This document shows, piece after piece, positions 13,328-60,400 of a DNA stretch of 64,000 nucleotides. The stretch spans positions 62,001 through 126,000 of the forward strand of contig CAUYUJ010000092.1 in assembly GCA_963575745.1 (NCBI GenBank). Reading direction: 5' to 3'. A model generated the notes under the pieces. It did no database searches. It was given only the letters and a program-made list of their open reading frames with translations, and was not told the origin of the DNA. The translations under genes were made by a program, and so were the position numbers. Source of the DNA: Prorocentrum cordatum. Its lineage: Eukaryota. Numbering within the stretch: position 1 is the stretch's first letter; each line of letters begins with the position of its first letter.

Positions 13328-14532
13328 GATATCGCATGTTCCCGACAACGGTGACGTATTCTTTCGCTTGCGTCCCCAGTGTGGCATTGGCGGCTTCTTG
13401 CGTTTTATGTGTAGCGGTATTGTAGTGCCGCTTGCACGTTGCGTTTAAGTCGGGCCCCGACTCTCTCCGTGTTCCTCCGATGACGGTCCCGTATCGAGAG
13501 TTAGGTTGCCATGTGCTTCTCCTCCCCTTCCCCCCTTCCTCTCCCAACCCTCCTCGTCCGGCTGCCCCGCCTCGAGACTCGAGGCGGGGCGGCGTCGCGG
13601 GCAGTCTTCGCGCGGGGAAGAGGAATTCGAGCCCGGCGCCGCCCTCCTCACGGTTTTGTCCTTTGTTTCGGGGCGGCCCGCCCTAGCTTTGCACGGGTTT
13701 CGATTTGCCTCGCGAGCCCGCGAACCAAAACAAGATCCCCACAAACCCATCCAGAAACGATGCCCAGGGGGGCTCTTGAGGCCGAGGGGCAAGTATTGAC
13801 GCAGTGAAGCAACGAGGCCGACAATGGCGAAGCGAGAGACCTTGGGGAGCCTCTGGGAGCCATCTTGGGGTCATGTTGGAAGCTTTTGAGATTCTCTGGG
13901 GGCGCTTTGGGGGCTCTTCGGGGTCGCTCTCGGGGGCCTTTGGGCTCTCTTGGCGACATCTTCGCGGCTGTTTGTCGAAGAAGCGGGAGTATTCAGTTGC
14001 TTGCACCCCCCCGTCGGAGGCCCAGGAATCGCGTCTGGAGGCCCTCTTGGGGGCGCTCCTGGAGCGTTCGAGGGCGTTCCTAGGGTCTTTGGGGCGCCCT
14101 CTTGGGCTCGTCTGGGGGCTCGCTTGAGACATCTTGCAGCCATCTTGAGGCCTCAGGGCCCCACTCACTACGGCTCGAAGAGGGAGGGCCCTGTTGCAAG
14201 ATACACGGGAGCCTTCCGTGTATCGTGCTTCGTGTATCTTGTTTTGGGGGCAAATTCGGGGCTCTCCTCGGGCCCTCTTTGTTCTTCTCAGCACCCTCTT
14301 GGGCCCATCTTGGGTCCTTCTCAGGGCCTCTCGAGGCGTTCGTGAACCTATTTTGAGGCCCTTCAGGTGCCCTCTTTGGGCTCCTCGGGGCCTCTCTTGG
14401 TCCCCCTTCTCGGGGCTCTCTTGGGCCCTCCTGGGGCCCCTCGTGGACGTCCCACACCCTCTCTCTTTCTCCTCCTCCTCCTCCTCCTCCTCATCCTCCT
14501 CCTCCTCTTCCTCCTCCTCATCCTCCTCGCGT

Positions 14533-14556
14533 TCCGTAACCAGTTTGTTCACAATG
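14533..14556 (+). other. Degenerate dinoflagellate spliced leader at the 5' end of the decayed LINE
   Basis: TCCGTAACCAGTTTGTTCACAATG versus TCCGTAGCCATTTTGGCTCAAG. Lies just after a (TCC)n tract (14470-14527) and ~170 nt before the ORF1 zinc finger. Confidence 0.55.
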
Positions 14557-20500: not shown

Positions 20501-21600
20501 CTGGGGCTCTCGGGCATGTTTCGGACCCCGTGGGCGCGGCCAGCCCTGGACATGCTCGGTCCCATGTGTGGAAGCATGTGTGCGATAAGCTCCACGGCGC
20601 GCGGTGGCACAGAGTGCCCACCCACTGCACCCTTCGGGATGTTGAGAATGGCAATCTCAACCGTCTCGAGTACCTCGGCAACACGGCTACCGATGATTAT
20701 GCGAAGCGAGGTGCCTTCCTGGGGTGAATGCCCGATGCCGATCGCTCCGTCGTCGCAGGTTGCTTCGAGCTGGCTCGTTTGTTGTGCAGGTATTCGGCCG
20801 AGCAAGAGGCTCGGATCGGGGATGGCCAGCAGTTCGATCATGTCGGCATCGGTTGGCTGGGGCACATCTCCTTCGAAGCCCCTCCTCGTCCTGAGGAGTT
20901 GGTCTCTTCCTCCACCTCCTCCTCCTGTGGGCGGCGGGGCGGGGCGGGACTGCTTGGGGGGGTGATGGGGGACGCGCGTGACGAGGGCAGGGCCGAGCGG
21001 CCCGACCTCCGTGTCTGGCCAGGACTGGGACATGCCATCCATGTGGCGAGGACCACGGACCTCGAGGGGAGGGCCCAAGGCCCCCTCGTCTGTTGCGCCT
21101 CGTGCGGTTCGACGTGTGCTGCCTGGGGCCACGGTGGCAAAACAGCTCTCGCGCCCGATTGCTTGCGTTTCCGCCCCTCGGGGCGGGAACGACAGCTGAC
21201 TTTGATTTCGCAAGGCCGCCATCCGTCGAAGCAAGATCTTCGGGTTGCTCAGGCATCCGTGCTATCTGACACGGGCCGTGACTTCCTTGCGGCTAAGATG
21301 GGTCTGGACGACCTCCCCTCTCTCATGCCGCCTCGGTCCAGGAATTCCCCGGCTGCTTCGTCGGGAGGGGTGGGAGGGTCTTGGCGGGCACTGGGGTCGA
21401 CATTTAGCGTAGCCTTGCACTGTTCGCGTTCAGCTCTCGGGACGAAGCTGAGTCTCCCGGGGGTCTTGCGCGGGAACGCCGACTGCAGATTGTGCCGCCC
21501 CCCGAAGACCCTGACCCCCAATTCGCTCGGAGTTGAGTTTGATGCATATTCAGATGCATATTCAAACGACGTGGAACCTCCATAGCCGCTGCCGAGCTCC
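14533..21600 (+). mobile_element. Decayed full-length non-LTR retrotransposon (ORF1 ZnF; ORF2 APE-RT-RNase H-ZnF) with many stops and frameshifts
   Basis: ORF1 remnant K*HCKSCDHPKSGKPF/LNFVENKKCFCCG (~14720-14810). APE: VAFFQET, VASLY, FIIGADWD, PTC..DYFV (16980-17480). RT: FISKRRTDVGHRPMGLL (~18580). RNase H: IFRDGSCY..AGWAV, VPTH, GNTATDDYAKRGA (20270-20720). C-terminus: H..CCASCG..LISQGRHP. Colinear with the intact element. Confidence 0.9.
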
Positions 21601-24600
21601 TCCTCCTCGCGACGCGCCTCCGCATTCTCCTCCTCCTCCTCCTCCTCCTCCTTCTCCTCCCTCGTCGCAACGCCCGCCGCCGTCGGACTGTCCACCTTCA
21701 GGCGTAAGTGAACGCGCCGTCACTTCCAGGTCGCGCAAGCCTTATGGAATCCAGCGTGTGCCCGTCTAGCTGCAGCGTCCCTGAGCGTGCCCCTCAAATG
21801 TGCCCCGCCCCTTACCTAAGTATGCCCCTGGTTTTTGTGAACGCGTCTTAGGCGTGAGGGCTGACAGATGAGGGGCCCCGTTAAGGCGCGCTCTCCGGCG
21901 CAAGGGTCCTGGGCGCGCTCTGGCGCAACAAGGGGCACACCCCAGAAGTAAGGGGCACATCCAGACAAAATAAGGGGCACACCCCAGAAGAATAAGGGGC
22001 ACGCCCCGGCACTATGAGAGGCACACCGAGGCAAAAGAAGGGGCACACCCTGGCAAAAGAAGGAGCACGCCCCAGCAAAGTAAGGGGTATACGCCCTGGC
22101 AAACTCCGAGAGCTGTTGGCGCCGCCCTGCGCGGCCGGAGTGCTCTCAGCCTGTCGCGCCTGGTTTTGGATAGGAGGAGGAAGAGGAGGAGGAGGAGGAG
22201 GAGGAGGAGGAGGAGGAGGAGGAGTGAGGAGGAGGAGGAGGAGGAGTGAGGAGGAGGAGGAGGAGGAGGAGGAGGAGTGAGGAGGAGGAGGAGGAGGTGA
22301 GGAGGAGGAGGAGGAGGAGGCGAAGGCAGCGGCGGGCAACCACTCGGGCAGGAGGGGCCGCCCGCCCCCTGGTCGCCAGCGGCGCCTCTGGCTGCTGGAA
22401 GAGAGCGTCGCAGTGGCGGTGGCATTCTCGCCTCCTCGCTGGCGGTGGGGCCCTCTCGGGGCCGTCTTGGGACCCGCTCGGGCCCCCAGGGGCCCGAAAA
22501 CGTCGCTTCGGAGAGCGCCAAGAGGGCCCGAACGGGCCCCAAGATTGCCCCTTTCGAGCCTCCCCCAGTACTTCCAGACGGCCTCGTCGTGCGTGCTCGC
22601 TTCTTGTCGGTGACCGCGAGAAGCGCGGGCACGCCGGCGTGCCGGCCGCGCCCAGAGCGCGTTGCACGCCTGCGTTCTCGCGGCTCCCCGCTGATCCCGC
22701 GCGCGCTGCCATGTGCTGAGGTGTGTCGCTCTTTGCCTTCCTCCCTCCTCCGCAGCCGCCCTGTCCGTTGTTCCCCCTCTTCCTGCACGCTGGCCAATTC
22801 GCTTCTCGGTGCCCCCTGTTTAGCTCTCATCGCTGGTGCAGGTGTTTTGGCCCCCCTCGGATCGAGAGCTGGGGGGCTTGAAGCTAGCGCTGTGCCCCGC
22901 CGTCTCATCAGAGACAAATGATCGAATTAAGAGACGACGGAAACGGCCTGCAGAGCGGCCGAGATGACCAAGGCCAGCTCGCCGGGCCGGGGCGCTGCAG
23001 CCCGTACATTTCCGTGCGGACTGGAGCGCCGAGGCGACAGCAAGCTTCCGAGTTGAGGGAAGGGGGAGGGACCCGGAGGGAGAACAGAAGCGGTACAGGT
23101 GGAGAGGAGGAACTGCTTGGTTCGCTTCCCCTCCCGCACCGGGCGACCCCAGCTCTGGCCGGACACAGATATGGACATTCTTGGTGGAAGGAGGGGGATG
23201 GAGAAACAGGAAAGGAGAAGGGAGGAGGAGGAGGAGGAGGGGGGGGGAGGAGGAGGAGAGGGAGGAGGAGGAGTTCGCGACGGGAGGCGGCTGGACTTAC
23301 GTGGCGCGAGCTGCCCCGAGGCCGCAAAGACGGGGGCGGCGTTGCTGCGGGAAGTGCGCTCAGACGCTCGCGCCGGTTCCGCCACGACGAGTCCGCCCGT
23401 GACGCGTGGCGCTGCGGCACGGGCAGGCTCACGCATCCTCCCTCCTCCCTCCTCCCTCCTCCCAGAAGCCCGACGTGCGTGGAAGCCAGATTTTCCCGTG
23501 GCCTCTCCATGGGGAAGTTTGCCACATCATGTGCCCGAGACCTGGCTGCAGCACCTCGGGGGAGGACGGACGCCGCCGCGCCGAGTACTGGATAGAAGAC
23601 GCAGCCGATTCGATCCCCGTCTGATCCGCAAAGCGTGGCCCCTGGCGTTGGCAATTTCGCTGTGCTGCAAGAGATCTGGCCCGCAAGGCTCAGGGCCGAA
23701 CGCATGCGCAGACGAAGAGTGATCATCGTGGGCGGGCAGTTCGCGTCAGAACCATGGTTGGTATCATACGCTCCGCCGCCTCCCCTTTCCCCTTCCCCCG
23801 TCCCTCCCCACCTTCGGCAAAGCCTCAGGTTGGGCGAGAGTTAGGTGCGCGCTTTGTGTTAGGTTCCGCTTGGCGCGGTAGAACCAGAGATGTCGCTGCC
23901 GTCTTGCGGAAGAAGAGAGGCAGAGGATGGCAGAACGAAATGAAGGGAAGGACGCAGCGAGGGAAGGGTTGGAGGGAGGCGAGAGAGAGAGAGACAAATG
24001 AAGTGAGGGATGAAGACACGGGAGGGAGAAATGAAAGGATGGTGGGAGGGAATAGTTATAGGGAACGGTGTCCGTGGCCCGGTTGGCTCGAGCTCGTGAC
24101 TCAGGCTATGTTTTTGCCCGGGCATCCCATTGCATGGATGACATCGTCGTCGTCATCCATCCTGCGCCGTCATCTTGCGGTGGGGTGGTTGGCCCCGTCG
24201 CTGCAGCGCTTGACTGTGCCTCGCTTCTTCGCAGCAGCGTTTGGCTTTAATTATTTCACGCGCTGTCATTCGCAGCAGTTCCACGGGTCCTTTTCGAAGG
24301 GCCAGCGTGCTGAGCACGCTTGTCGCCCGTCTTCGGGCCGCCCCCCCCGGGCGTTGACGGCTTCGACCTTTGACCCTCGATCCCACTGCACGCGAGATAA
24401 CGTTTACCATCTCGTTGTCTTGGCTGCTGTGGCTTGCGTGCCACGCTCTCGATCGTGTGAATCCTCTGCTGCCTATCGTCGCCGCGCAGCCCAGCGGGGC
24501 ATCCCTCCGCGGAGCAAGCTGGGCCACTGCGATGCTGCCGTTTATGTTGCCTTGCGGCGTAACGCGGAGGGCGTCGTCGACAGTCTTTGCCACCAAGCCT

Positions 24601-25058: not shown

Positions 25059-28080
<3,022 letters not shown>

Positions 28081-36301: not shown

Positions 36302-36503
36302 AAGGAGAAGAAATGAAGGAGGATGAGGAGGAGGAGAAGAAGGAGGAGGAGGGGGAGGCAGAGGAAGGAGAAGAAGAAGACGAGGAGGAGGAGGAGGTGG
36401 AGGAGGAGGAGGAGGGGGAGGAGGAGGGAGGAGGAGGAAGAGGAGGAGGAGGAGGAGGGGGGAGGAGGAGGAGGAGGGGAGGGAGGAGGGGGGGAGGAGG
36501 AGG
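36302..36503 (+). repeat. (GGA)n-rich tract = (TCC)n 3' flank or tail of the LINE
   Basis: Abuts the element's 3' UTR directly. No poly(A). Confidence 0.9.
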
Positions 36504-36744
36504 CGCGCGGACCGCACGCCACCAGCAAGAAGCAAGCCTCGAGCTGGTGGTCCAGTTCAGGCAAGGCCCAGCTCACGCAAGGGCGTGGGCCGAGCGAAAG
36601 GGGGCCGCCCCGCCTGCCTGGCCTCGTCGCACACCAGCCTCCTCAGCGCCGAGAGCACCAGGAAGATGCACACGTGTGCGGCGGGGGAGGGGGGAGGCGA
36701 CGGGCGACAGACGACGGGGGCAGCCCAAGAAAACTAAAACGAGT

Positions 36745-39700
36745 TTAGTCAGAGCCCGAACTCGCTCCATCAGGAGCAGGTTCGGGCCCACGGGCCGCTT
36801 CCAGCAGCCTCAAAGAAATGGAAACTCGGCGGAGCTCCGCGCGGTCATCGTCGCGCTCGGCGGCGTCAAGAGCAATCTTCACGCCCGTCTTGGGGTAACA
36901 CCCACGCTCCAGCCGACGGATGGACATTCTCTGATTAGCAGCCGTGCTCGGGACTTTGGATCTTCCTTGGCATTGCTGCGTGAGGTTTCGCAGCGAGCCG
37001 AGAGAGCCATGAGCCCCGCACAGCTTGCAACAGTACACATGTAGGTGACGAAAAACGTCGTGCCCAAGGTCCCGAAAGGCAGAAAACTCATCCGACGGCT
37101 CGGGCTCAGCCACGGGAGTTGGGGGACCTTGGACCTCATCAGTGCACACACGCTGAACTTCGTCAGCAGCAGCCAGAGCAACCCTCACCGCTTCCAGCTG
37201 CACGGGCCTAAACGCAGCCCCAAACTCACGAAACCACTGGTCGCACACGTGTCGCTGGATCGGTGACGGCATACAGTCACGAGTGTCTCTACTCGTGAGC
37301 AGGCTCTTAAGTGACTCCGACGTGCGAGCAACACGGCCACAGCTCCTGCACTTATAGGTGCTGGTGGCCTCACAGCGAAACAACACATGGCTAGTGACCG
37401 TGACCTTCGGAGGGGCAGGGGCTCTCAAGAGGCGGAGGGAACGATCAGGGTCAACTTGCGTCCATGTGCCAGACTCGAGCAGCCGTTGGGCAGCCCATGC
37501 AATGAATCGCACCGTGGATTTATGATATTTTAAATCCCCTGACACAGCCGCGCAAAAACCCTCAGAAAGCGTGTGAGAGCCGGCCCCTAGTTTGGCGAAA
37601 AAGTCAGCCCACAGATTCCCAGCCCAATTTTTGACACACAGACCACGCTCCAACACGTCATCGAAACTCAGATGGGCTGGGACCCATGAGAACTGGGGGT
37701 GATTTGACTTAAGATCAAATATGGACCTCCAGATCGAGGCATGCTTGGACATGCCTTGGGAGAGATGCTGGCTCCAAGAATTGCCTTCTCGCACAACAGC
37801 CTGGAGGTCCGATACAATACTCTGATGCTGCGGGTGAAAAGCCAGCCCCTGCCGCACAGCCCAGCGTTCTGCACGACCTATGGTCTGACGCTCACCTGGG
37901 AGCGCTCCATATACGGCCCTCAGGGGAAGCAAACAATCAAATAACTGCACAACGCTCCAACCAGCTCTGGAGACCTCTGGGACCCCAGAGTGATAGCAAC
38001 TACCATCAGTGAAAGACTGAGGGCCCCAGGACCCAGAGACGTCCCCAAACTCAAAAACAGGTGGGTTGGCTAGCGGAGCGAGGATGTTGGTAGGCAAGGG
38101 AGGAATGCCATAAGTTAAATAATTAGAGTGCACATCGGGCTCCCCAGTTATAGAGGCCCGAGACTGGATCAACACGCGCCTATGCCTGGCCAGGGCCTCA
38201 GGAACCTCGTCACCCAAAGCGTCAACCCCGTCGTCGGTGATGAACTTAGAGCAGGCATACCACACGTGTCCGTGCGTGCCTTGAGGAGCGGAGCAGGCAA
38301 GGCACTCAGGTAGCCCATCATATTGCAGAGCAGACAGTGCAGCAGGTAGCGGAACCACATTCCCCCAGACGGCAGCAAGGGCCCCAAGAGCACGCGGGTC
38401 TTTTACGGCACGTATACCATGACGAAGTGCACGAAACCAAGGCTCCCCTTCTGGAGGGTCAGTGTTATAGAGGTGCTGCTGCAACCGACGTATCTGCCAC
38501 CGCTGCACCCCTTCGATAATCGCAATTCGCACATCACTGGGACACACCACCAGCAGCGAAATATCTGTACCAAGATCGCTGCGAAAAGTGTGGGCATTGA
38601 CCATCGTCCAGCCTATGCGAAGCAGGCTGAGCCACACCGCCGACAGCGGACCACGAGCCTGCTGCCAAGTAGGGTTGTCGGACATGATATCTCTCAAACA
38701 GGTCCACGCACGTTGAAGCCTCGATATCTGAACCCTTCCGTCCCAGACGAACGTGGCGAACTTGACACACACGCAAATAGTGGAGTCGTAGATCGGGTCG
38801 TATAGCGGATCGGCCTGCGTCAGCAGATACGACGTGATGCCACCGTGCTGCTTGGCACCTGCGATCGTAGCCGCAAGCTGCCTCAAATACTTCAGCGCCG
38901 TGTCTGAAATGCCCGACACGGAACCACCGTGCCCAGCCGCTGGGAAAGCTCCAGTCCTCCAAAGTCGGGTTGCACGCTTGCCAGTTGCATGTTTCAGTGC
39001 AATGAATTTGTCACGGCGACGTTTAAGAGCATGTAGCCTTTTCTTCTCCTGAGTGCGAACAACCCGACCAGCAGCTAATTCATGCCCGAGATTTCTCATC
39101 CATTTACGAACAGGTAGATGCAGCCGAATAGCCATCTTCGAGAAAACCTTCCGAGCAACCTTGTTCCCTGCTATGAGCCCCGACTTTTTGACCTGGGAGT
39201 ACTTGGCATCTTCGGTGAACACTTTCACGGCACGCTCCAGGAAACGCACATCACGAGGATCCGAGGTGACGAGCTGAATCGAGATGTCGTCGACGAGGGC
39301 TCTCGGTGTTATACAGGGCGAAATGTCATTGAGTCTACGCACAGCACGCAGCGTGAGAAGGAAAAGCATGCCTGTCGCATGATTGCACCCAGCAAGGATG
39401 CCTTGATGCGAACAGAACTGCAGCGACAAGCTGCCGAAAGCTCGAAGACGCCGTGGCTGCCTGTACAGATCCACCAGCATCCAAGCTAGCCGCATTGGAA
39501 AGTGTAACGCTTCAGCCTCTTTCAACAGCTGCTCCGAGTGAACCATTTCGAAGCATTTGATCATGTCTAAGAGGACAGATATTGAAATATCACCGACTAG
39601 CGCTGCCATTTCGGCAGCAATGTTGTGGGCAAACGCACTGTCTGAGGAACTGTGCCCACGACGAGTACCCCAAACAGCGTAGCAGTCATTGCGCTCTTGC

Positions 39701-42015
39701 CAGTCGAAGGTGATGGGCTTACGAACTTTGCCCCAGACACGGCACAGCAGCGAAACGAGAGCGATCAGACGAGTCCCACCATCAGGTTTGGCAAGACGGC
39801 ACATCTCATTACAGACACGCTCTCTAGGCCAGGCTAAGTGCAGCTCGCACAGGTTAAAGAGTTCAGCAATCGCCGAAAAGGCCGGCCTAGGCAAATGGAT
39901 TAAAGCTCTCGGATGAATACCCATCATGCCTCCAGCAGTGCGAGTGGGGTAAGTGTGAACAGCATCCTCCACCTGAGCGGCCGTGATGGGCGGCAGCATG
40001 GGCCAGCTGGTGGACCCTCGGGGAGACTCAAGAGCGGAGCAGCCGTGGGTCAACCAAACCTCCTTCCAGGGTTCAAGTTCAGCATCGGCCTGCTGGTGGG
40101 GTGCCTCTCGCGCCTGGTTGCTTAAAACCTCTTGGATGGCCTTCACTTTTGAGAACCTGTGAGCCATCGAAGCACCAGCAGAAAAGGCGTCCCTAGCCCA
40201 TTGCCTCCAAGCCTGGGACGCCGCATTCTCCGCGCGAGTGACAGCTGCCTTCGCACGAGTGTAAATAGTAGTGAGCATGCTGGCCACATCAGGACGTGCG
40301 AGGACGGCGAAGCCGCCATTGAAGAAATCTCGCGCATCCGAGTCGAGGCAACCCGAGACTTTTTTGCAGCGGGCGATGTTGGCCATAAAACGATCGAACT
40401 CATCAAATGCAGTGAGAAGCTTGCGATATTGCAGGGGCGCATGCGAACACAGAGCATCGTTTTCTTGCATTAGCCTAATTTGCTCACTAAGATGTTCTCT
40501 GGCCTTGCCTAAGTGTTTGGCCCAACCAAGAGCGACAGCCCAGGCACGTGCCTGCGGATCCTTATAAGTCCTCCTTCTGGGGGGAGTCCAGACAAGCTTT
40601 TTGAAGTGGACCTCCAGAGGCCCGCTGCGGCCAACATAGGCCTCGGCGGCTAAGCCAACACGGTCCCACCTGGCAGCCAACTCTCTTTCCACCCCTTCGA
40701 GGACGAGGTCCCAAAAATCTGCGACCTTGGCTACAGAATCAACTTGCGGGGCGGCGGTCGACAAAACCGCGTGCCACGGGTAGATAGGAGGTCTAGCACA
40801 GCCTATGGGAGGGGTAGACGGGAACGCTTTCGGGACCTTGGCCACCCGAGCCCAAACCGGGGCCTCCCGAGCCCTCAAAGTAAGCTGGACGGGGAGGTGA
40901 GGGTAGGTGGTAGCAGCCTCCAACACACACGTGCGGGGGTTAAGCTTTGGCGCAAGCCAACTGCTACAAATAAAATAATCGATGTGCGTGCCAGGTGAAA
41001 CCTGCCTGCAGGTGGGCGCCTCAGAAACGAAAGCCAGTCCGCCAGCAGCCGCGATCCAGTCGGACTGGTCCAGGGCAGCGAGCGGCATGTTGAAATCGGC
41101 GCCGATGACCCACGGGATCTGCATGCCGTTGAGCACTGAGAGGTACTCGATAATCTCCCACACCAACTCGGCGTTGCACGGTCCATATCCTTCGCCGTCC
41201 TTGAGATAAGCCGACAGGAAGACGACACCGCCAGGCAGAAAAGACATGACGTGTGCAGCCACAAGCCTGCCAGGGACAAGGACGTGACTAGCGCAGCCAG
41301 GGGGCGCCTTGATAGGAATATGTGACCTGACCAAAACTGCAACGCCGCCTGTGGCGCCAGGCCCTCCATCCTGATTGGGCACGGCGGGGCCCCAGAGCCC
41401 TCTCCAGCCAGTATCTTCAACTTGCGACTGTCGCTCGCCAAGCTTGGTATCAGGAACATGGTGCTCTTGCGCAAGCACCACATGAGCAGTGCTGTCCACA
41501 AGGTAGTCGCACAGTGGACCCAGCGAGCTGGAGTTGAGCGTCGCGATATACGAGTCGCTTTTGCCCTTCGCCTGGCCAGCAACCTTGACATCAGGTCGAC
41601 GAACCCCTGGGCAGTCGGTACCCTCTGCCACGCGTTGCCCATCGGGCGAGCAGGGTGAGCAGTGCGTGCTGCCAGGGCCTAAAAGATTCATGCCATCGGA
41701 ACAACCAGCAGTAGAGCCAGCCACCCTCGTCGAGCAAGAGGCCGATATCGTCAAAGCAATAGGCGCACATGTGGCGCTCTCTGCCTGCCACCTGGTGACA
41801 GGTGAGTGTAGCGACCGAGACGATGACGTAGCACCCGCAGTCGCAGTGGCCGCCCTTGCAGAAGACGCAGAAGGGGCAACCTGGTCGCATGTGACTGGCA
41901 GATATGGCAGACTGTCAGATGCTTCATCAAATTCAAAAGGATCAACATCAGGATCGTCCATGAGAGAACGTCTGGGAGCTGAGGTCAGCTCATCTTGGGC
42001 AGTAGGCGTCGTCAT
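36745..42015 (-). CDS. LINE ORF2 polyprotein, ~1756 aa: APE endonuclease, reverse transcriptase, Cys/His knuckle, RNase H, two C-terminal Cys/His fingers
   Basis: APE: IATLN, LAQEH, GGVAVLV, SAY, IGADFN, PTC..IDYF, YPHLPV. RT: KPDGGTRLIAL, LLDMIKCFEMV, GILAG, LVDD. Knuckle: CLAC..GTHGHVWYAC. RNase H: FTDGS, RAE, IVSD, WVPAH, GNLWADFFAK. Fingers: H..YKCRSCG..C and GH..YCCKLCG..C. Start taken as the first ATG after the ORF1 stop (uncertain). Confidence 0.95.
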   Translation of the reverse strand: MTTPTAQDELTSAPRRSLMDDPDVDPFEFDEASDSLPYLPVTCDQVAPSASSARAATATAGATSSSRSLHSPVTRWQAESATCAPIALTISASCSTRVAGSTAGCSDGMNLLGPGSTHCSPCSPDGQRVAEGTDCPGVRRPDVKVAGQAKGKSDSYIATLNSSSLGPLCDYLVDSTAHVVLAQEHHVPDTKLGERQSQVEDTGWRGLWGPAVPNQDGGPGATGGVAVLVRSHIPIKAPPGCASHVLVPGRLVAAHVMSFLPGGVVFLSAYLKDGEGYGPCNAELVWEIIEYLSVLNGMQIPWVIGADFNMPLAALDQSDWIAAAGGLAFVSEAPTCRQVSPGTHIDYFICSSWLAPKLNPRTCVLEAATTYPHLPVQLTLRAREAPVWARVAKVPKAFPSTPPIGCARPPIYPWHAVLSTAAPQVDSVAKVADFWDLVLEGVERELAARWDRVGLAAEAYVGRSGPLEVHFKKLVWTPPRRRTYKDPQARAWAVALGWAKHLGKAREHLSEQIRLMQENDALCSHAPLQYRKLLTAFDEFDRFMANIARCKKVSGCLDSDARDFFNGGFAVLARPDVASMLTTIYTRAKAAVTRAENAASQAWRQWARDAFSAGASMAHRFSKVKAIQEVLSNQAREAPHQQADAELEPWKEVWLTHGCSALESPRGSTSWPMLPPITAAQVEDAVHTYPTRTAGGMMGIHPRALIHLPRPAFSAIAELFNLCELHLAWPRERVCNEMCRLAKPDGGTRLIALVSLLCRVWGKVRKPITFDWQERNDCYAVWGTRRGHSSSDSAFAHNIAAEMAALVGDISISVLLDMIKCFEMVHSEQLLKEAEALHFPMRLAWMLVDLYRQPRRLRAFGSLSLQFCSHQGILAGCNHATGMLFLLTLRAVRRLNDISPCITPRALVDDISIQLVTSDPRDVRFLERAVKVFTEDAKYSQVKKSGLIAGNKVARKVFSKMAIRLHLPVRKWMRNLGHELAAGRVVRTQEKKRLHALKRRRDKFIALKHATGKRATRLWRTGAFPAAGHGGSVSGISDTALKYLRQLAATIAGAKQHGGITSYLLTQADPLYDPIYDSTICVCVKFATFVWDGRVQISRLQRAWTCLRDIMSDNPTWQQARGPLSAVWLSLLRIGWTMVNAHTFRSDLGTDISLLVVCPSDVRIAIIEGVQRWQIRRLQQHLYNTDPPEGEPWFRALRHGIRAVKDPRALGALAAVWGNVVPLPAALSALQYDGLPECLACSAPQGTHGHVWYACSKFITDDGVDALGDEVPEALARHRRVLIQSRASITGEPDVHSNYLTYGIPPLPTNILAPLANPPVFEFGDVSGSWGPQSFTDGSCYHSGVPEVSRAGWSVVQLFDCLLPLRAVYGALPGERQTIGRAERWAVRQGLAFHPQHQSIVSDLQAVVREGNSWSQHLSQGMSKHASIWRSIFDLKSNHPQFSWVPAHLSFDDVLERGLCVKNWAGNLWADFFAKLGAGSHTLSEGFCAAVSGDLKYHKSTVRFIAWAAQRLLESGTWTQVDPDRSLRLLRAPAPPKVTVTSHVLFRCEATSTYKCRSCGRVARTSESLKSLLTSRDTRDCMPSPIQRHVCDQWFREFGAAFRPVQLEAVRVALAAADEVQRVCTDEVQGPPTPVAEPEPSDEFSAFRDLGHDVFRHLHVYCCKLCGAHGSLGSLRNLTQQCQGRSKVPSTAANQRMSIRRLERGCYPKTGVKIALDAAERDDDRAELRRVSISLRLLEAARGPEPAPDGASSGSD

Positions 42016-42070
42016 TGCACTAGGGCAATGGCATAGACAGAACAAAACCACAGCGAACCACCCAATCACT

Positions 42071-43216
42071 TTACGCAGCGGTCTTGCCACTGGTCTTGAA
42101 CTTCTTCGTAAGCGATTGAACTTGTGCCAAGTGACGCTTGAGCTTATCACGAAGCTCTCGCACCTTGGGCTCATCAAGCTCGTCGTCTTCACCGCCCACG
42201 TCGACATCAATGCCACATTCTTTGAGATGTTCACGGCATGTGCGACCACCCAGGCCATCAACGTGAGCATTAGCACGAGCCTGATCCTCAGCATCGTCGA
42301 CGTCCATGGGTGCTCGAGCCTCAGGAGGAGCGGTGTGAGCCTCAGGCTGTGGAGCAGACGGTTCGGGTGCAGCAGTGGCCTCTGGGGCTTCCTTGAGCTT
42401 CTGAACCAGCGCGCGCATGGCGATGAGGTCGGTGCTGAACCGCTCCGACCCGCCCAACGCACGGACAACGGCGTCGAACTGCTCGACCGTGGCCTCCATG
42501 CCTGGCAGGAAGGTGGACAGGGAAGGTGCCTTGTCATCAAACTGCACGGCAGGGACGACCACATGGCGCAACCGCTCCTCAAGTTCCACGATGTGCTTGT
42601 TAGCGTCCTGCTCGTCCTGCTCGACCTGCGCAAGGGCCTGCTTGGCCTTCTCCAGGGTAGAGCGAGCAGCCTCCTTTTTGACAGCCAGATTGGACAGCTT
42701 CGTGCGAGCAGTCTTGAGCTGGCTGGTGAGCCCCTGCAAGTTGGCCTCCAGCGGTTTGTCGGCCTGCAACTCAGCCTGCAGGCGCTGCTTCTCGGCCTCG
42801 AACACCGCACGCTGCTCGGCGTCCTCAGGCCCCGACAGGAGCTTGAGCAGACTTCCAAGCTTGGTGAGGCGCTCACGTTTGACAGCAGCGTCAGTGCCTT
42901 TAGCCCAGGGAGGGATCGCAGGCTCCTTGGGCTCCACAACCGTACCATTTTGACTGACAACCATCTTCTGCATGCGCTGCTGCAATTCTTCCAACTGCTT
43001 CGTGAGAAGCTTTTCACGCTTCGTGGCCATGTCGTGAGACCGCTGGACGGGGACCTTGGGCGGAGGGACACCTTGGAAAGCTGAGCCTTTCGGGATGCCA
43101 CACTTGCCACACCACTTCTGATCGCCACGATTGATCCAGCTCGTGCCAGTGGGCTCATGCTTGCACCATTTACAATACCATGGGCCTGCCTCCGCACTGC
43201 GCGACCTGGGAGCCAT
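42071..43216 (-). CDS. LINE ORF1, 381 aa: N-terminal RanBP2-like C4 zinc finger plus long coiled coil
   Basis: MAPRS..WYCKWC-x10-N-x6-CGKCG and an E/K/Q/L/A heptad-rich middle region. The same finger pattern occurs in the decayed copy at ~14720. Confidence 0.9.
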   Translation of the reverse strand: MAPRSRSAEAGPWYCKWCKHEPTGTSWINRGDQKWCGKCGIPKGSAFQGVPPPKVPVQRSHDMATKREKLLTKQLEELQQRMQKMVVSQNGTVVEPKEPAIPPWAKGTDAAVKRERLTKLGSLLKLLSGPEDAEQRAVFEAEKQRLQAELQADKPLEANLQGLTSQLKTARTKLSNLAVKKEAARSTLEKAKQALAQVEQDEQDANKHIVELEERLRHVVVPAVQFDDKAPSLSTFLPGMEATVEQFDAVVRALGGSERFSTDLIAMRALVQKLKEAPEATAAPEPSAPQPEAHTAPPEARAPMDVDDAEDQARANAHVDGLGGRTCREHLKECGIDVDVGGEDDELDEPKVRELRDKLKRHLAQVQSLTKKFKTSGKTAA

Positions 43217-43418
43217 GCCGACGGGCGGATGAGCAGACCGAGCGCGCACACGAGACACCACGCGAGGCCTGACAGGCGGGCCGTGGCGGGGCTGGGCCGT
43301 GCGGGGCGGACCGCACAGCGCTCTGCCTGGGGCGAACCAGGCGAAAACGTTGAAGACTGCCGCGGTAACAGCGGTATCCAGTTTGGCACAAGGGCGCGGA
43401 GCCCTTCAGTGCAGAAGT

Positions 43419-43470
43419 CTTGAGCCAAAATGGCTTGAGCCAAAATGGCTTGAGCCAAAATGGCTACGGA
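43419..43470 (-). other. Dinoflagellate spliced leader (22 nt, 43470-43449) followed by two perfect 15-nt relic SLs
   Basis: Minus strand reads TCCGTAGCCATTTTGGCTCAAG CCATTTTGGCTCAAG CCATTTTGGCTCAAG, an exact match to DCCGTAGCCATTTTGGCTCAAG. Confidence 0.98.
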
Positions 43471-43800
43471 GAGGGGGAGGAGGAGGAGGAGGAGGAGGAA
43501 GAGGAGAGGAGGAGGAGGAGGGGGAGGAGGAGGGGGAGGAGGAGGAGGAGTTAAAGAAGAAGAGAAGAAGATGAAGAGGAGGAGGAGGAGGAGGAGGACG
43601 AGGTGGACGAGGAGGAGGAGGAGGAGGAGGAGGAGAGAAGAGGAAGAGGAGGAGGAGGTGGTGGAGGAGGAGGAGGACGGGGAGGAGGAGGAGGAGAAGG
43701 AGGAGGAGAAGGAGAAGGAGAGGAAGAGGAAGAGGAGGAGGAGGGGGAGGAGGAGGAGGAGGAGGAGGAGGAGGAGGAGGAGGAGGAGGAGGGGGAGGGA
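43471..43800 (+). repeat. (GGA)n-rich tract = ~330-nt polypyrimidine (TCC)n immediately upstream of the SL on the minus strand
   Basis: Seen directly. Confidence 0.95.
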
Positions 43801-43949
43801 AGGAAGGGTGACGGACTGCAAGGGCGCAAGAGGAGAGGGAACGGAGTGTCGGCGCTTCACAGCACGCCAGCCTCCATAGGAGCGGCCGGGGAGCCGCCCC
43901 TCCTCCGTACGAGCTCGGCTACCCCTCATCACTAGCAGGGGAGGGCGTA

Positions 43950-57429: not shown

Positions 57430-60400
57430 ACGGCATGGGTCACCCGATCAAGGGCCTCCTGATGCGGGTGCTGGATGCGCCCCTCACCATCGACACCGTT
57501 AGGGCCCCAGACACTAAGACTGCGGCCAGCGCCCGCGCGGATGAGTGGGAGCAGGCCCTCATGAGCGAGCGGAGCCGCAAGTCCAAGTTCAAACTGGGAG
57601 TGAAGTACCCACGCTCGGCGTGCCTGCTGCACAAGGCGTGCGCCTGGAGGGCCGCGTGGGGCCCCCCGGGGGTTCGGTCAGCAAGCAGCCCTTGGCCACC
57701 CACCCGCAGCAGGCGGTGGAGCAGGAGGCTGCCGCACTGGCGGGTGCATGGTAAGCTGAGCAGGGCCCGCACGGCAAGCTTTGGACGGCAGCAGGGCAGA
57801 CCATGGGCAAGATCGAGGCCGACGGGCCGAGGGCAGGCTGCAAGGCCTACCAAGAGCGCGCCAGGGTCATAGGCGGGCGTCCTCGACACTGGAGCTGGTT
57901 AAGCAACGACCTTCTGGACTATTTGGGCGTCCTCTTGGAGCGGTGCGAGAGTGGCCAGACGACGTCCACCACCTGGTCATTTTCATCCTGGGCAAGCGCG
58001 ACGGAGGTGGCAGGCCGATCTGTCAGCTCCCTACGCCCGCGCGTGTTTGGGAGGGCGTTCGGGCCGCCCATATGGAGCGTTGGGAAGCCCAGCGCTGCAG
58101 GAGCTACGACTGGGCAGCTCCAGGCCGAAGCAGCGAGCAGGCAGGCTGGCGGGTTCTGCTGGACGGCGAGTCCTGGGAAGACAACGGCTTCAGCTCTGTC
58201 AGCGCCTGCCCTGCTGGACATCACCATGCGAGACGGTCCCTCTCAACCTCCTGTGGGTCTTCGCGGAGGTCATGGAGTGCCCCATGGACGTGGCCAGGCT
58301 GGCCTTGGAGGCCTTCGCGGCCCCCCGCTACATCAGACGGGAAGGGGCGGTCGCCGAGCCCATCGCCGCGCTCGTGGGGTTGCCAGCGGGCAAGTACTCG
58401 AACAAGTTGCTGAAGGTCTTTCTCGATTAGGCCTTGGACCTTGTGCACAAAGGGTTCCCCGCTCTCGTGCATCGCGAAGTACGTGGGCGACGTCGCCCTG
58501 ATGATGGTCCACTCAGCCAAGCAACTCATGACGGAGTTTCTGGGAGCGCCTTAGTTCCTGGCGATGGCGCTGGAGGAGGTGATTGGGCTTCCCTTGGTGA
58601 GGAGGCCAGGCCCAGGCGGAAAGTGCGAGTCCGTGACGAGCGCCGCGAAGGCCATGGAGGTGCCGCGCGAGCCCGCGAGGCGGCTCGGCATCCTCGAGGG
58701 CAGCGCGGAGGCGCGGCTGGGCATCGACTACATCCCGTAGCCAGCTCGCCGTCGGCGCGCCCGCCGCCAGCGGCGCCTCGCGACCGCCCGTTCGAACTGG
58801 CGCAGGGCAGCCTGGCTCAGAAAGCGCGGGGTGAAGGTGAGGTGTTTCGCGGGCCAGGGCGCGGCCCCCCCCCTCGCCCACGGCGCCGCTCGCGAGAACG
58901 CGCCGCTCCGCGTCCAGAAGTTCCTGTGCGACAAGCTCGGGGCAGCTCGGACGGGGGCGGGGCCGTTCCGCCCGGCGACGCTCAACGCGGCGATTGAAGG
59001 GGGCCAGGTGGCGGAGCGCGCGGGGCTGGCGCCGCGTCCGGCGCGGGCGCGCTCGCGCTGGGAACGCCCCGGCACGGGCGAAAGCACGAAGAGAGTCCGG
59101 GCCAAGCAGCGTCGCACCGTCGGCCCCCTTTCGCGCAGCGACATCTCGCCCATGGAGCGGTGGTCTGAGGTGGGGGGCCCAGCGGGGGCCACCCTGGTCG
59201 CGCGTCGCGACAGAGGTTGGCGCATGAGCGACCACCGTCAGCTCGCGATCGGCAACGAGCGGCTCAACCAGAGCGAGAAAGCCCCCCCCCGGGCGCTGTC
59301 AGCGAGGCCAAGGGGGCGATCGGGGAAGCCGCGCTGGAGGCCCGGCCCAGCGCTCCCACTCGGGAGGCGTGGCGGCCGCGCCCTTGGGTCGCACCACTGC
59401 GGCAGGTCACGCGCAATTAGCTGTCGCAGAGCTGGGGCGCCCGCCACCGCGGCGCCGCGAACGCGGCCGCCCTCGGCGGCCCCCTTGAGCAGCGCGCCCT
59501 TTTCGCCGAGGGCAGGGCCGACAGCGCAATTCCCCCGTTTTGCGGCGCCGAGGGAGGCGCCGACGCGCGCCTGCACTGGCGGCGCCGCGACCCCGAGCGC
59601 CAGGGGATCCGCGAGAAGCTACCGATCCGGGGCCCGACGCGAACTTCCGTGACATCTCCGCGCGGGGCGAGCCGGCGCAGGACTCGCGGTTGTGGTCGCG
59701 CGGCCTGGCGGCGGGCCCCGCGGTGGAAGCGCGCCGGCGGCTGCTCGAGGCCGAGCTCCACCGGGTCAAGTTCAAGCCTGGCGGCCCCGCGCACTTCAGC
59801 TGGAGCATCGCCTCCGACGGCTCGGCGGCCAACCCCAGCTGGCCGAGGCTGCGCGCGGGGGGCCGGGCGGCCGTGGCGCACGACAACAATGGGCTGGGGC
59901 AGGGCCTGCGGGGCCCGCTACCTGCCCCCGCGACGCGCAGCCTGACCCCCGAGATCTGGGCGATGATCATGGCAGTCCAGCGCGCGAGTTTCCTCCCGGA
60001 GGTGATCATTGGTGGTGGTCGACGGCTTGCTGGCCAGGCGAGCTCGCCGCTGCGGCGGTGGCTCAGTGGCCACCCACTTGTGGCGCCACCTTTGGGGCCT
60101 GCTGGAGGACAGGCAGCTCGCGCCCGGCGGGGACCTTGCGGTCACAAAGATCCAAGCCCACGCCTCGAGGGCGCAGCGGGAGGGGATGTCGGCCGGGCAG
60201 CAGGCGAGACGCGTTCAACGATGTGGCCGACAAGTACGCGAAGATGGGAGTTGCCGCTTGCCCCGTGCCCGCCTCGGCAGCGGCGCACGCGGGGGCGCGC
60301 AGCGAGCGCGTCAGGCGCGTGCTGGAGTACGTGGCCAGCTTCCGCGCACCCCTGGCGGGGTCGGGGGCCGCCGCGGCCGCGGCCAGGTGCCCGAGGAGCG

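What the first reader, a model, noticed from the sequence alone, without database searches (positions are those of the whole stretch)
36302..43800. LINE embedded in (TCC)n on both sides: the microsatellite may be both the target and the polypyrimidine tract for trans-splicing
Seen: in element orientation both flanks are (TCC)n (43471-43800 upstream, 36302-36503 downstream), there is no poly(A), and the 5' junction reads ...CCTCCCCCTC|TCCGTAG. The decayed copy on the opposite strand has the same polarity, with (TCC)n at 14470-14527 and 21595-21660, and both 3' junction regions contain CGCGCCTCC. Inference: orientation-specific insertion into TCC repeats puts a long, nearly AG-free pyrimidine tract right before the SL's internal AG, creating a strong splice acceptor. 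The SL's first bases (TCC) also offer microhomology for 5' joining. Alternatively the element adds TCC tails and seeds the many GGA/TCC tracts in this window.
Basis: partly seen in the sequence, partly recalled or inferred. Interest (0 to 1): 0.75.

Follow-up and report, generated by a model that had tools for sequence, protein, structure and literature searches.

The report
Leader-capped LINE inside a TCC microsatellite
An intact jumping gene of a dinoflagellate carries the host's mRNA leader at its front and sits inside a TCC repeat, and similar leader-tagged copies elsewhere also tend to sit next to simple repeats, which hints at how these algae copy RNA back into their genomes.

Summary
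On the minus strand, 43470-36504 is an intact non-LTR retrotransposon: a full 22-nt dinoflagellate spliced leader, two truncated relics, ORF1, and ORF2 with endonuclease, reverse transcriptase and RNase H. It has no poly(A). Imperfect (TCC)n lies on both sides in element polarity.

The "decayed copy" at 14533-~21600 is a different, distantly related LINE. It also carries a worn leader behind (TCC)n and has a candidate 11-nt target duplication. A third decayed LINE (about 54.3-61.4 kb) lies between pyrimidine-rich tracts of matching polarity.

The window-level chance of two same-polarity insertions in such tracts is about 5e-4 to 3e-3, estimated post hoc. No genome is held, so the family-wide flank test could not be run.

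As a substitute I examined metagenome contigs with leader+relic. In 22 of 90 loci a microsatellite reaches the leader, against 1.35% repeat coverage in their own flanks. The motifs are mostly (TA)n, and the closest relative sits behind (AGAC)n.

The "microsatellite as target" reading is therefore supported and looks general. The polypyrimidine-tract reading is not general: only 1 of 78 flanks is ≥80% pyrimidine. The shared CGCGCCTCC motif is at chance level. Seeding of the other TCC tracts by LINE tails finds no support.

The parts
43471..43798 (-). 5' flank: imperfect (TCC)n in element polarity. Together with the next 20 nt it forms a 350-nt AG-free, 96.6% pyrimidine stretch ending at the leader's AG.
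   Evidence: TRF period 3, 109 copies, 82% matches; sequence; AG-free run
43449..43470 (-). Full 22-nt dinoflagellate spliced leader, TCCGTAGCCATTTTGGCTCAAG, at the element's 5' end.
   Evidence: Sequence; exact pattern hits; DinoSL consensus DCCGTAGCCATTTTGGCTCAAG as quoted in PMC7245778 (passage)
43419..43448 (-). Two relic leaders (CCATTTTGGCTCAAG x2), each cut after the leader's internal AG. They record earlier rounds of trans-splicing and retrotransposition.
   Evidence: 3 exact hits against 0.22 expected (at the search's tolerance of up to 2 mismatches); TRF 15-nt unit, 3.1 copies, 100% matches
43217..43418 (-). 5' UTR, homologous to the 5' UTR of the second LINE (E2).
   Evidence: Alignment A1; local score 34, 0 of 500 shuffles reach it
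42071..43216 (-). ORF1, 381 aa, intact. It has an N-terminal Cys-rich motif (WYCKWC...CGKC) and a long charged helical-looking region, and matches no Pfam family.
   Evidence: the N-terminus matches the ORF of L019 at 35% identity
36745..42015 (-). ORF2, 1756 aa, intact. Endonuclease is at about 41514-40960, reverse transcriptase at about 39792-39283, RNase H at about 38013-37585, followed by a Cys-rich C-terminus.
   Evidence: Pfam Exo_endo_phos E 7.8e-6 (26.2 bits, cut-off 24.5) and RVT_1 E 1.3e-5 (25.5 bits, below cut-off 29.6); RNase_H E 5.8e-6 (27 bits, cut-off 25.8); relatives P0003 and P0004; PDB profile hits to ExoIII and human L1 ORF2p RT
36504..36744 (-). 3' UTR without poly(A). Its last 97 nt can form hairpins, including an 8-bp stem CCACCAGC/GCUGGUGG. 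The last unambiguous base is G at 36504; the following CC could belong to the UTR or to the repeat.
   Evidence: Sequence; fold z -2.96 for 97 nt but -0.53 for 147 nt; not alignable with E2's 3' end
36317..36503 (-). 3' flank: imperfect (TCC)n in element polarity. It could be target DNA, an RNA-derived tail, or both.
   Evidence: TRF period 3, 63 copies, 82% matches; sequence
14469..14532 (+). 5' flank of the second LINE (E2): (TCC)n ending in ...TCCTCCTCGCGT. The candidate target-site duplication TCCTCCTCGCG lies at 14521-14531.
14533..21600 (+). E2: a decayed, distantly related LINE with one worn leader (TCCGTAACCAGTTTG, 13 of 15 matching) at its 5' end. Collinear remnants: APE 17179-17505, RT 18902-19874, RNase H 20264-20715, C-terminus 21085-21258.
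   Evidence: none of 9 ORF pieces has a Pfam hit
21601..21660 (+). 3' flank of E2: the second copy of TCCTCCTCGCG (21601-21611), then ACGCGCCTCCGCATT and (TCC)n.
57949..59244 (+). E3: reverse-transcriptase remnants of a third decayed LINE. By scaling to E1 its ends are predicted near 54250 and 61350. Plus-strand pyrimidine-rich tracts lie at 54340-54535 (below threshold) and at 61513-61562, 61613-61690 and 61835-61932.
   Evidence: tblastn with P0003, E 1e-9; profile hits; tracts; no recognisable 5' UTR homology

Best explanation
E1 (43470-36504, minus strand) is a young, probably active APE-type non-LTR retrotransposon of a dinoflagellate. It integrated by target-primed reverse transcription into a pre-existing (TCC)n/(GGA)n microsatellite.

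Its mRNA is trans-spliced like a host mRNA. Full-length cDNA therefore carries the 22-nt leader into each new copy. The new copy is transcribed from somewhere upstream, and a fresh leader is spliced onto the old leader's internal AG. Three such rounds are written in the leader+relic+relic array (shown).

The element has no poly(A) and ends directly in the repeat. I infer that its RNA reads into the downstream repeat, and that this (UCC)n end pairs with the nicked (GGA)n strand to prime reverse transcription. That would fix the orientation and keep the lineage in like repeats (inferred).

Landing in simple repeats is not special to TCC or to this element. It appears to be a general habit of leader-tagged retrocopies in dinoflagellate DNA, with the repeat type differing between lineages (shown for 5' junctions in metagenome contigs).
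For: Element anatomy and intactness.

Copy number and age: in run X1, 603 contigs were laid on the element at 88% likeness or more, and 170 of them are at least 99% alike. Summed contig depth is 48-270 across ORF1-ORF2.

TCC association inside the window:
- E1 and E2 descend from different insertion events (no nucleotide similarity in the body), yet both start with a leader directly behind (TCC)n and end in (TCC)n of the same polarity.
- E3's predicted ends fall within about 100-300 nt of plus-strand pyrimidine tracts. Such tracts cover only 2.4% of that strand.
- Chance of two same-polarity hits: 5.5e-4 to 2.6e-3.

Pre-existing target rather than fresh tail:
- Both E1 flanks are 82% pure, while the leader repeats are 100% identical.
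- E2 has the 11-nt repeat TCCTCCTCGCG at both ends.
- The window's other TCC/GGA tracts have no LINE remnant beside them.

Generality, from 116 unique metagenome loci with leader+relic:
- 22 of the 90 with at least 30 nt upstream have a perfect repeat of 12 nt or more within 8 nt of the leader. Repeat coverage of their own flanks is 1.35% (p 1.6e-21), and of this window 5.96% (p 1e-8).
- The same (AT)n occurs downstream in 2 of 9 loci with upstream (AT)n, against 0 of 38 without it (p 0.033).
- At least five of these loci are LINEs with an endonuclease behind the leader: L019, L027, L016, L032 and L055.
- In L024 a retrocopy's leader starts exactly at the end of another LINE's tandem-repeat tail.
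Against: - Only three elements could be examined for TCC, one of them with approximate ends. The flanks of the many other family copies could not be seen: no genome is held, read laying masked the repeats, and metagenome and viral scans with the ORF2 C-terminus found nothing.
- TCC/GGA tracts are unusually dense in this window, and the probability is post hoc.
- The closest relative with a visible 5' flank (L019) sits behind (AGAC)n, so TCC is not a clade-wide target.
- Among metagenome loci with at least 300 nt upstream, only 3 of 23 touch a repeat. That is significant against 1.35% (p 0.004) but not against 6% (p 0.16).
- Short-read contigs break at repeats, which may distort that sample.
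- E1's own target duplication cannot be read in low-complexity DNA.
- Whether the RNA carries (UCC)n is unknown, because no RNA run was listed.
- The 3' hairpin is weakly supported and is not conserved in E2.
Confidence: 0.55

Rival explanations
1. Tail-seeding. The (TCC)n on the 3' side is made or carried by the element itself, as an RNA-encoded or slippage-made repeat tail like those of many poly(A)-less LINEs. The 5' tract is the leftover tail of an earlier insertion, so elements pile into each other's tails and the repeats spread with them.
For: There is no poly(A), and the 3' UTR runs straight into the repeat. L024 shows a LINE 3' end with a 12-13-nt tandem-repeat tail and another retrocopy's leader starting exactly at that tail's end. 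RTE-type retroposons are reported to have microsatellite-like 3' ends that correlate with their target duplications (PMC6007223, abstract).
Against: No LINE coding or UTR remnant lies upstream of E1's 328-nt 5' tract, or beside the window's other TCC/GGA tracts. E1's 3' tract is as impure (82%) as the 5' tract although the element looks young. E2's candidate duplication includes a non-repeat CGCG interruption.
Confidence: 0.2
2. The family is kept in (TCC)n because the long AG-free pyrimidine tract just upstream makes the leader's internal AG a strong trans-splice acceptor. Copies in TCC are the ones that propagate.
For: The leader's AG is the first AG after 350 nt of 96.6% pyrimidine. The two relics prove that ancestors were transcribed from upstream and re-spliced at that AG. 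Song et al. make the same point for multi-relic retrogenes (PMC5585692, passage). From memory, poly-pyrimidine tracts define trans-splice sites in trypanosomatids.
Against: Among 78 unique leader+relic loci with at least 60 nt upstream, the median pyrimidine content is 0.48 and only 1 reaches 0.8. Four are 70% or more purine, including the closest LINE relative L019, which sits behind AG-rich (AGAC)n. The median distance to the previous AG is 20 nt. Bachvaroff and Place found no consensus at dinoflagellate acceptors beyond AG (PMC2488372, passage).
Confidence: 0.15
3. Coincidence. TCC/GGA tracts are so dense here that LINEs end up next to them by chance, or both simply accumulate in the same gene-poor, repeat-rich DNA.
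For: There are 29 strict and 38 loose tracts in 64 kb. No Pfam-recognisable host gene is in the window, so it is a repeat dump.
Against: The junctions are exact to the base at four ends, and the polarity matches in all three elements. p is 5.5e-4 to 2.6e-3. There is an independent excess of microsatellites at leader junctions elsewhere.
Confidence: 0.08
4. Break capture. Microsatellites that form unusual DNA structures (triplex-prone TCC/GGA, cruciform-prone TA) break often, and reverse-transcribed RNAs are captured at these breaks without sequence-specific nicking by the element's endonuclease.
For: Many different motifs occur at leader junctions, and ordinary gene retrocopies also show repeat-like sequence at or close to the leader: imperfect TG- or TA-type runs at the junction for the Kelch genes, and (TA)n about 25-35 nt upstream for tubulin and RPL23. 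None of these reaches the strict repeat criterion.
Against: All three window LINEs have the same polarity relative to the TCC strand, although that alone is only a 1-in-4 chance. The endonuclease domain is intact. E2 has a candidate target duplication, which is typical of staggered nicking.
Confidence: 0.07

Closest known systems
DinoSL-tagged retrogenes ('mRNA recycling', Slamovits & Keeling 2008, as described in PMC3229502 and PMC7245778; Song et al. 2017, PMC5585692)
   Same: A full leader at the 5' end is followed by relics cut after the internal AG. Repeated rounds of transcription, trans-splicing, reverse transcription and re-insertion are recorded in the DNA.
   Different: Here the tagged unit is the autonomous retrotransposon itself, not a host gene. 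Those papers say the source of the reverse transcriptase is unknown or guess at Ty1/copia or LINEs (for PMC3942190). None of the passages I saw mentions microsatellites at the insertion sites.
Microsatellite-specific non-LTR retrotransposons (Kojima & Fujiwara 2004, cited in PMC4640811; Togen (TG)n-specific and some HERO families, PMC4640811 passages; Waldo, Mino, Kibi, Koshi and Dong recalled from memory)
   Same: A LINE lies inside a simple repeat in a fixed orientation, with the same repeat on both sides.
   Different: The families in the PMC4640811 passages that I read (Togen, some HERO) carry a restriction-like endonuclease; that animal R1-clade APE elements also target microsatellites is my recollection. 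This element is a very divergent APE-RT-RNase H LINE of a protist. Its specificity rests on 2-3 elements, and a close relative sits behind a different repeat. It also carries a spliced leader.
Spliced-leader-associated LINEs (CRE/SLACS/CZAR of trypanosomatids, NeSL-1 of C. elegans; 'spliced leader exons' listed as LINE targets in PMC4640811, names recalled)
   Same: A LINE is physically joined to a spliced-leader sequence.
   Different: Those elements insert into SL RNA genes using a restriction-like endonuclease. Here the leader is a complete copy at the element's own 5' end, followed by relics and preceded by (TCC)n, so it came from trans-splicing of the element's RNA. The endonuclease is APE-type.
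Poly(A)-less LINEs with a 3' stem-loop and short tandem-repeat tails (eel UnaL2 / zebrafish L2 type, recalled; RTE-related retroposons with microsatellite-like 3' ends, PMC6007223 abstract)
   Same: There is no poly(A), the 3' UTR ends in a possible hairpin and is followed at once by a short-unit repeat. In those systems the repeat in the RNA is thought to set the priming site (abstract).
   Different: The repeat here is also present upstream of the element. Its presence in the RNA is untested. The hairpin is weakly supported (z -2.96 for 97 nt, -0.53 for 147 nt) and is not conserved in E2.
Trypanosomatid L1Tc/ingi with the Pr77 internal promoter (abstracts in the listing)
   Same: A LINE living in a genome where mRNAs are trans-spliced.
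   Different: By those abstracts, L1Tc makes its own unspliced transcripts from an internal promoter. This element instead shows the mark of host trans-splicing on its 5' end.

Membership tests
APE-type non-LTR retrotransposon (LINE) | Apurinic/apyrimidinic-type endonuclease domain at the N-terminus of ORF2 | tested here: met
   Pfam Exo_endo_phos, aa 168-352, 26.2 bits against cut-off 24.5; PDB profile hit to exodeoxyribonuclease III, E 3.6e-5
APE-type non-LTR retrotransposon (LINE) | Reverse transcriptase domain | tested here: met
   RVT_1, aa 742-911, E 1.3e-5 but 25.5 bits, below the 29.6 cut-off. Supported by a 578-aa alignment to P0003, which passes RVT_1 at 42.1 bits, and by a profile hit to human L1 ORF2p RT, E 0.005
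APE-type non-LTR retrotransposon (LINE) | Many dispersed copies in the genome | tested here: met
   603 contigs of run X1 were laid on it, 170 of them at least 99% alike. Parts are held in 10 runs from 7 studies. Dispersal itself was not seen.
APE-type non-LTR retrotransposon (LINE) | Target-site duplication flanking the insert | tested here: inconclusive
   E2 has the 11-nt TCCTCCTCGCG at both ends. E1 is unreadable in the repeat
Microsatellite-specific LINE | Most copies of the family lie in one repeat motif, in one orientation | tested here: inconclusive
   3 of 3 LINE remnants in the window fit (one with approximate ends). No genome is held. Relative L019 lies behind (AGAC)n
Microsatellite-specific LINE | The endonuclease nicks the repeat at a defined position | not testable with these tools
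   Needs an in-vitro nicking assay
DinoSL-tagged retrocopy | Complete 22-nt leader in genomic DNA at the unit's 5' end | tested here: met
   TCCGTAGCCATTTTGGCTCAAG at 43470-43449
DinoSL-tagged retrocopy | Downstream relics truncated after the leader's AG | tested here: met
   Two exact CCATTTTGGCTCAAG units at 43448-43419
SL-gene-targeting LINEs (CRE/SLACS/CZAR, NeSL) | Restriction-like endonuclease downstream of the RT | tested here: not met
   The endonuclease is N-terminal and APE-type. RNase H follows the RT
SL-gene-targeting LINEs (CRE/SLACS/CZAR, NeSL) | Insertion interrupts an SL RNA gene | tested here: not met
   The leader is complete from its first base, preceded by (TCC)n and followed by relics and the element's own UTR. 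No SL RNA gene remainder lies at either end
Stringent-type LINE with 3' stem-loop plus repeat tail | Conserved 3' stem-loop recognised by the RT | tested here: inconclusive
   97-nt fold z -2.96 (3 of 200 shuffles as good), 147-nt fold z -0.53. The 3' ends of E1 and E2 do not align
Stringent-type LINE with 3' stem-loop plus repeat tail | Repeat units present at the 3' end of the RNA | not testable with these tools
   No RNA run holds the element

The most novel reading that the evidence does not exclude
Dinoflagellate LINEs may carry neither a promoter nor an end signal of their own. The host's trans-splicing rebuilds a capped, full-length 5' end at the old leader's AG. The 3' end is a read-through copy of whatever microsatellite the parent copy sits in. 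That inherited repeat tail then guides reverse transcription to like microsatellites elsewhere ('inherited-flank homing'). Lineages would therefore stay in one repeat type, and switch type after a stray insertion: TCC here, AGAC in L019, TA in others. The same machinery, acting on host mRNAs, would be the long-sought engine of dinoflagellate 'mRNA recycling', and it would explain why leader-tagged retrocopies sit at microsatellites.
Probability: 0.25. Interest if true: 0.85.

Novelty: new variant of a known kind. Interest (0 to 1): 0.62.

Why it matters
Dinoflagellate genomes are full of genes copied back from mRNA. The papers I read say that the enzyme source and the rules of insertion are unknown (PMC5585692 and PMC12014239 passages).

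This window shows an intact, multi-copy LINE that carries the same leader+relic signature as those retrogenes. That makes it a concrete candidate for the machinery.

It also gives a simple, checkable rule: leader-tagged copies, both LINEs and genes, tend to sit at microsatellites. If the rule holds genome-wide, it would help to annotate retrocopies, to explain part of the repeat landscape, and to understand how an element without its own promoter stays full-length.

My five successful literature searches found no paper describing leader-capped LINEs or microsatellite-linked retroposition in dinoflagellates. The library lacks most subscription journals, and I opened no supplements.

Tried and rejected
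- Whole-genome search of the source: no genome is held for this window.
- Notes of earlier scans: nothing on this genome or sequence. The one DinoSL note concerns giant viruses and does not bear on this finding.
- Protein search with ORF2: only 2 distant relatives (25% and 23% identity), without names or context.
- Sequencing runs: no RNA holder listed.
- Read laying on X1, X2, X3 and X6: the tool skipped the repeat flanks (36436-36508 and 43460-43540), so it gave no information on other copies' flanks and found no joints. The loose ends at 43419 are other leader-bearing genes.
- The search for related loci with the last 449 aa of ORF2: in metagenome contigs 600 pattern matches, in viral contigs 15, none confirmed by tblastn in either.
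- Pfam on 9 ORF pieces of E2: none hit.
- Pfam on 80 of the 112 long ORFs found outside E1 and E2: only low-complexity chance hits, so no neighbouring host gene and no statement about read-through from a gene.
- phmmer of ORF2 against PDB: none.
- Alignment of E1 and E2 3' ends: not alignable.
- Alignment of E3's candidate 5' end to E1, E2 and L019: no convincing homology.
- Same-motif search downstream of non-AT upstream repeats in metagenome loci: none found. Most contigs end before the retrocopy does, and my first motif caller was sloppy.
- Papers on Alexandrium, Polarella, Amoebophrya, Oxyrrhis and Symbiodiniaceae genomes (passages only): no description of leader-bearing LINEs.
- First blastn of the element with its flanks: the output was swamped by repeat hits and was redone without flanks.

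Full report
**What is there**

The window is dinoflagellate nuclear DNA. The 22-nt dinoflagellate spliced leader occurs in it exactly. The consensus DCCGTAGCCATTTTGGCTCAAG is quoted in PMC7245778 (passage).

On the minus strand, from 43470 down to 36504, lies an intact non-LTR retrotransposon that I call E1. It consists of:
- the full leader at 43470-43449;
- two exact relics, CCATTTTGGCTCAAG, at 43448-43419 (3 exact hits of the 15-mer, against 0.22 hits expected at the search's tolerance of up to 2 mismatches);
- a 202-nt 5' UTR;
- ORF1 of 381 aa, with no Pfam family;
- a 55-nt spacer;
- ORF2 of 1756 aa with Exo_endo_phos (26.2 bits, cut-off 24.5), RVT_1 (25.5 bits, below the 29.6 cut-off) and RNase_H (27 bits, cut-off 25.8);
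- a 241-nt 3' UTR with no A-run.

A profile of ORF2 with its two database relatives weakly hits exonuclease III (E 3.6e-5) and the RT of human L1 ORF2p (E 0.005) in the PDB. A single-sequence search finds nothing. E1 is therefore a very divergent APE-type LINE.

**The flanks**

In element polarity, imperfect (TCC)n lies on both sides, at 43471-43798 and 36317-36503. TRF gives 82% matches for both. The leader's internal AG is the first AG after 350 nt that are 96.6% pyrimidine.

**The other elements**

- blastn finds no similarity, and tblastn finds only the endonuclease region at 32% identity.
- A profile built from ORF2, P0003 and P0004 shows collinear remnants of endonuclease, RT, RNase H and C-terminus.
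- Its 5' end is a worn leader, TCCGTAACCAGTTTG, with 13 of 15 bases matching.
- The UTR behind it is homologous to E1's (local score 34; 0 of 500 shuffles reach it).

E2 is thus a separate, older member of the same broad lineage, and an independent insertion. It starts 4 nt behind (TCC)n (14469-14528) and ends in (TCC)n (21597-21660).

The 11-mer TCCTCCTCGCG stands directly before its 5' end (14521-14531) and directly after its coding remnant (21601-21611). This is a candidate target-site duplication that includes a non-repeat CGCG interruption. I rate this as suggestive only.

The two 3' ends do not align.

I also found a third decayed LINE (E3, plus strand), with RT remnants at 57949-58391 and 59146-59244. 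Scaling to E1 predicts its ends near 54250 and 61350. Plus-strand pyrimidine-rich tracts lie at 54340-54535 (too decayed to pass my threshold) and at 61513-61932. Its exact ends and any leader could not be recognised.

**Is it more than chance?**

TCC/GGA tracts are dense in this window.
- Strict definition: 29 tracts, 2,339 nt.
- Loose definition (at least 88% pyrimidine over 50 nt): 38 tracts, 5,123 nt. Only 12 of these, covering 1,550 nt, are on the plus strand.

If two insertions fell at random into the non-LINE part of the window with random orientation, both landing in a tract of matching polarity has p = 5.5e-4 (strict) to 2.6e-3 (loose). E3 adds a little. These figures are post hoc and use only this window.

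**Other copies of the family**

No genome is held. The element is multi-copy. In run X1, 603 contigs were laid at 88% likeness or more, 170 of them at least 99% alike, and the summed contig depth is 48-270 across the ORFs. The depth is only 17-23 over the 3' UTR. Parts of the element occur in 10 runs from 7 studies, among them marine metagenomes.

The tool masked the repeat flanks, so it said nothing about other copies' flanks. Searches of metagenome and viral contigs with the ORF2 C-terminus found no relative.

**A substitute test: leader junctions elsewhere**

I scanned metagenome contigs for the leader plus one relic. This signature marks retrocopies that have been through at least two rounds.

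*Microsatellites at the 5' junction.* Of the 90 unique loci with at least 30 nt upstream, 22 have a perfect microsatellite (period 1-6, at least 12 nt) reaching within 8 nt of the leader.
- Such repeats cover 1.35% (436 of 32,302 nt) of the same loci's upstream flanks more than 60 nt away (binomial p 1.6e-21).
- They cover 5.96% of this window (p 1e-8).
- An earlier, looser caller gave 25 of 93 junctions, against 11 of 2,340 random positions.
- The motifs are mostly (TA)n, with (CAT)n, (CAA)n, (AGAC)n, (ACAT)n, (TG)n and (TC)n also seen.
- The excess is weaker in loci with at least 300 nt upstream: 3 of 23, p 0.004 against 1.35% but p 0.16 against 6%.
- Short-read contigs break at repeats, so this sample is imperfect.

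*Same repeat at both ends.* Where contigs reach far enough, the same repeat can appear at the 3' side. 2 of 9 loci with upstream (AT)n also have (AT)n downstream (L022, L076), against 0 of 38 loci without upstream (AT)n (Fisher p 0.033).

*LINEs among the loci.* Some of these loci are LINEs.
- L019 has an ORF whose N-terminus resembles E1's ORF1 (35% identity) and whose endonuclease is 43% identical to E1's (E 2.4e-49).
- L027, L016, L032 and L055 also have an endonuclease behind the leader.
- L019 sits behind (AGAC)n.
- In L024 a LINE's ORF2 C-terminus is followed by a 12-13-nt tandem-repeat tail, and another retrocopy's leader starts exactly where that tail ends.
- Ordinary genes (RPL23, tubulin, Kelch, radical SAM and others) are also among the loci.

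**The polypyrimidine idea**

In 78 unique loci with at least 60 nt upstream, the median pyrimidine content of those 60 nt is 0.48. Only one locus (L025) reaches 0.8, and four are 70% or more purine, including L019. The median distance from the leader's AG back to the previous AG is 20 nt.

A long AG-free pyrimidine tract is therefore not a general requirement for re-splicing at the leader's AG. Bachvaroff and Place likewise report no consensus beyond AG at dinoflagellate acceptors (PMC2488372, passage).

It remains true that multi-relic units must have been transcribed from upstream of the leader (Song et al., PMC5585692, passage). For E1 that means through or from the TCC tract. Whether the tract helps is open, because no RNA data were available.

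**Tails seeding the tracts**

Apart from the tracts that flank the three LINEs, none of the window's other TCC/GGA tracts has LINE sequence beside it by blastn, tblastn or profile search. E1's 3' tract is as impure as its 5' tract, while the element looks young: perfect leader repeats, intact ORFs and many near-identical contigs. This favours a pre-existing, aged repeat as the target. It does not exclude that part of the 3' tract came with the RNA.

**Most likely mechanism**

Shown:
- The element's RNA is trans-spliced.
- Full-length cDNA carries the leader into new copies.
- The old leader's AG is reused, at least three rounds in E1's ancestry.
- Insertions of this lineage in the window lie in TCC repeats in one polarity.
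- Leader-tagged retrocopies elsewhere are enriched at microsatellites.

Inferred:
- The element has no end signal of its own, so transcripts run into the downstream repeat.
- The (UCC)n end pairs with the 3' end of the nicked (GGA)n strand and primes reverse transcription.
- This fixes the orientation and keeps the lineage in like repeats.
- The repeat type can change between lineages (AGAC behind L019, TA behind others).

I put about 0.55 on the core statement, that E1 is a leader-capped LINE inserted into a pre-existing microsatellite that the machinery prefers. I put much less on the pairing step.

**Comparison with what is known**

- Leader+relic retrogenes are well known.
- Microsatellite-specific LINEs are known in other organisms (PMC4640811 passages; further family names are recalled from memory).
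- LINEs with repeat tails are known (PMC6007223 abstract; the eel and zebrafish L2 elements are recalled from memory).
- LINEs that insert into SL RNA genes are a different thing. They use a restriction-like endonuclease and interrupt the SL gene, neither of which applies here.

What I did not find in five successful literature searches, or in the passages read, is an autonomous LINE that itself bears the dinoflagellate leader and relics, or any link between dinoflagellate retroposition and microsatellites. The library lacks most subscription journals, and I read passages and abstracts only, no supplements.

I therefore file this as a new variant of known kinds, with moderate to high interest. 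The specific polypyrimidine reading is weak. The target reading, and its apparent generality, are worth a proper genome-wide test.

Noticed in passing
RT remnants match P0003 (E 1e-9), and pyrimidine-rich tracts of matching polarity lie near both predicted ends.
   Followed up: partly
window about 52330-52050 (-): A possible processed retrocopy of about 280 nt. A decayed leader-like GTAGCCATAGGCTC lies 47 nt behind the TCC tract 52400-52550, and the unit ends in a run of 16 A. The sequence after the A-run is not TCC.
   Followed up: no
window 36745-43929 (-): ORF2's reading frame stays free of stops for 1.9 kb upstream of its ATG, through ORF1, the leaders and part of the TCC tract (2394-aa 'ORF'). 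Its translation looks like off-frame Ser/Arg/Leu/Pro-rich junk. In relative L019 the ORF1-like zinc-finger N-terminus and the endonuclease are in one ORF.
   Followed up: partly
L024 (metagenome locus), 1014-1136 in leader orientation: A LINE 3' end with a 12-13-nt tandem repeat tail, (GGATATATCCRTG)n. Another retrocopy's full leader starts exactly at the end of that tail.
   Followed up: partly
window 36436-36909 compared with 36910-43308: In run X1 the summed contig depth is 17-23 over the 3' UTR and the end of ORF2, but 48-270 over the rest. It is roughly flat from ORF1 to ORF2, with no obvious 3' bias such as 5'-truncated LINE copies would give. The tool warns that contig depth cannot rank parts of a gene.
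   Followed up: no
window 35504-36178; 49100-50392; 9095-10308; 26318-27109: Large tandem arrays: an 83-nt unit x8 just beyond (about 140 nt from) E1's 3' TCC tract, a 90-nt unit x14, (TGTGCGTG)n of 1.2 kb, and (ATC)n of 0.8 kb. No Pfam-recognisable host gene was found among 80 of the 112 long ORFs tested in the window.
   Followed up: no
metagenome loci L038, L049, L050, L056, L064 and L023, L036: Two clusters of long ORFs that start right behind leader+relic, have no Pfam family and are related to each other. They may be ORF1s of further leader-capped LINE families.
   Followed up: no
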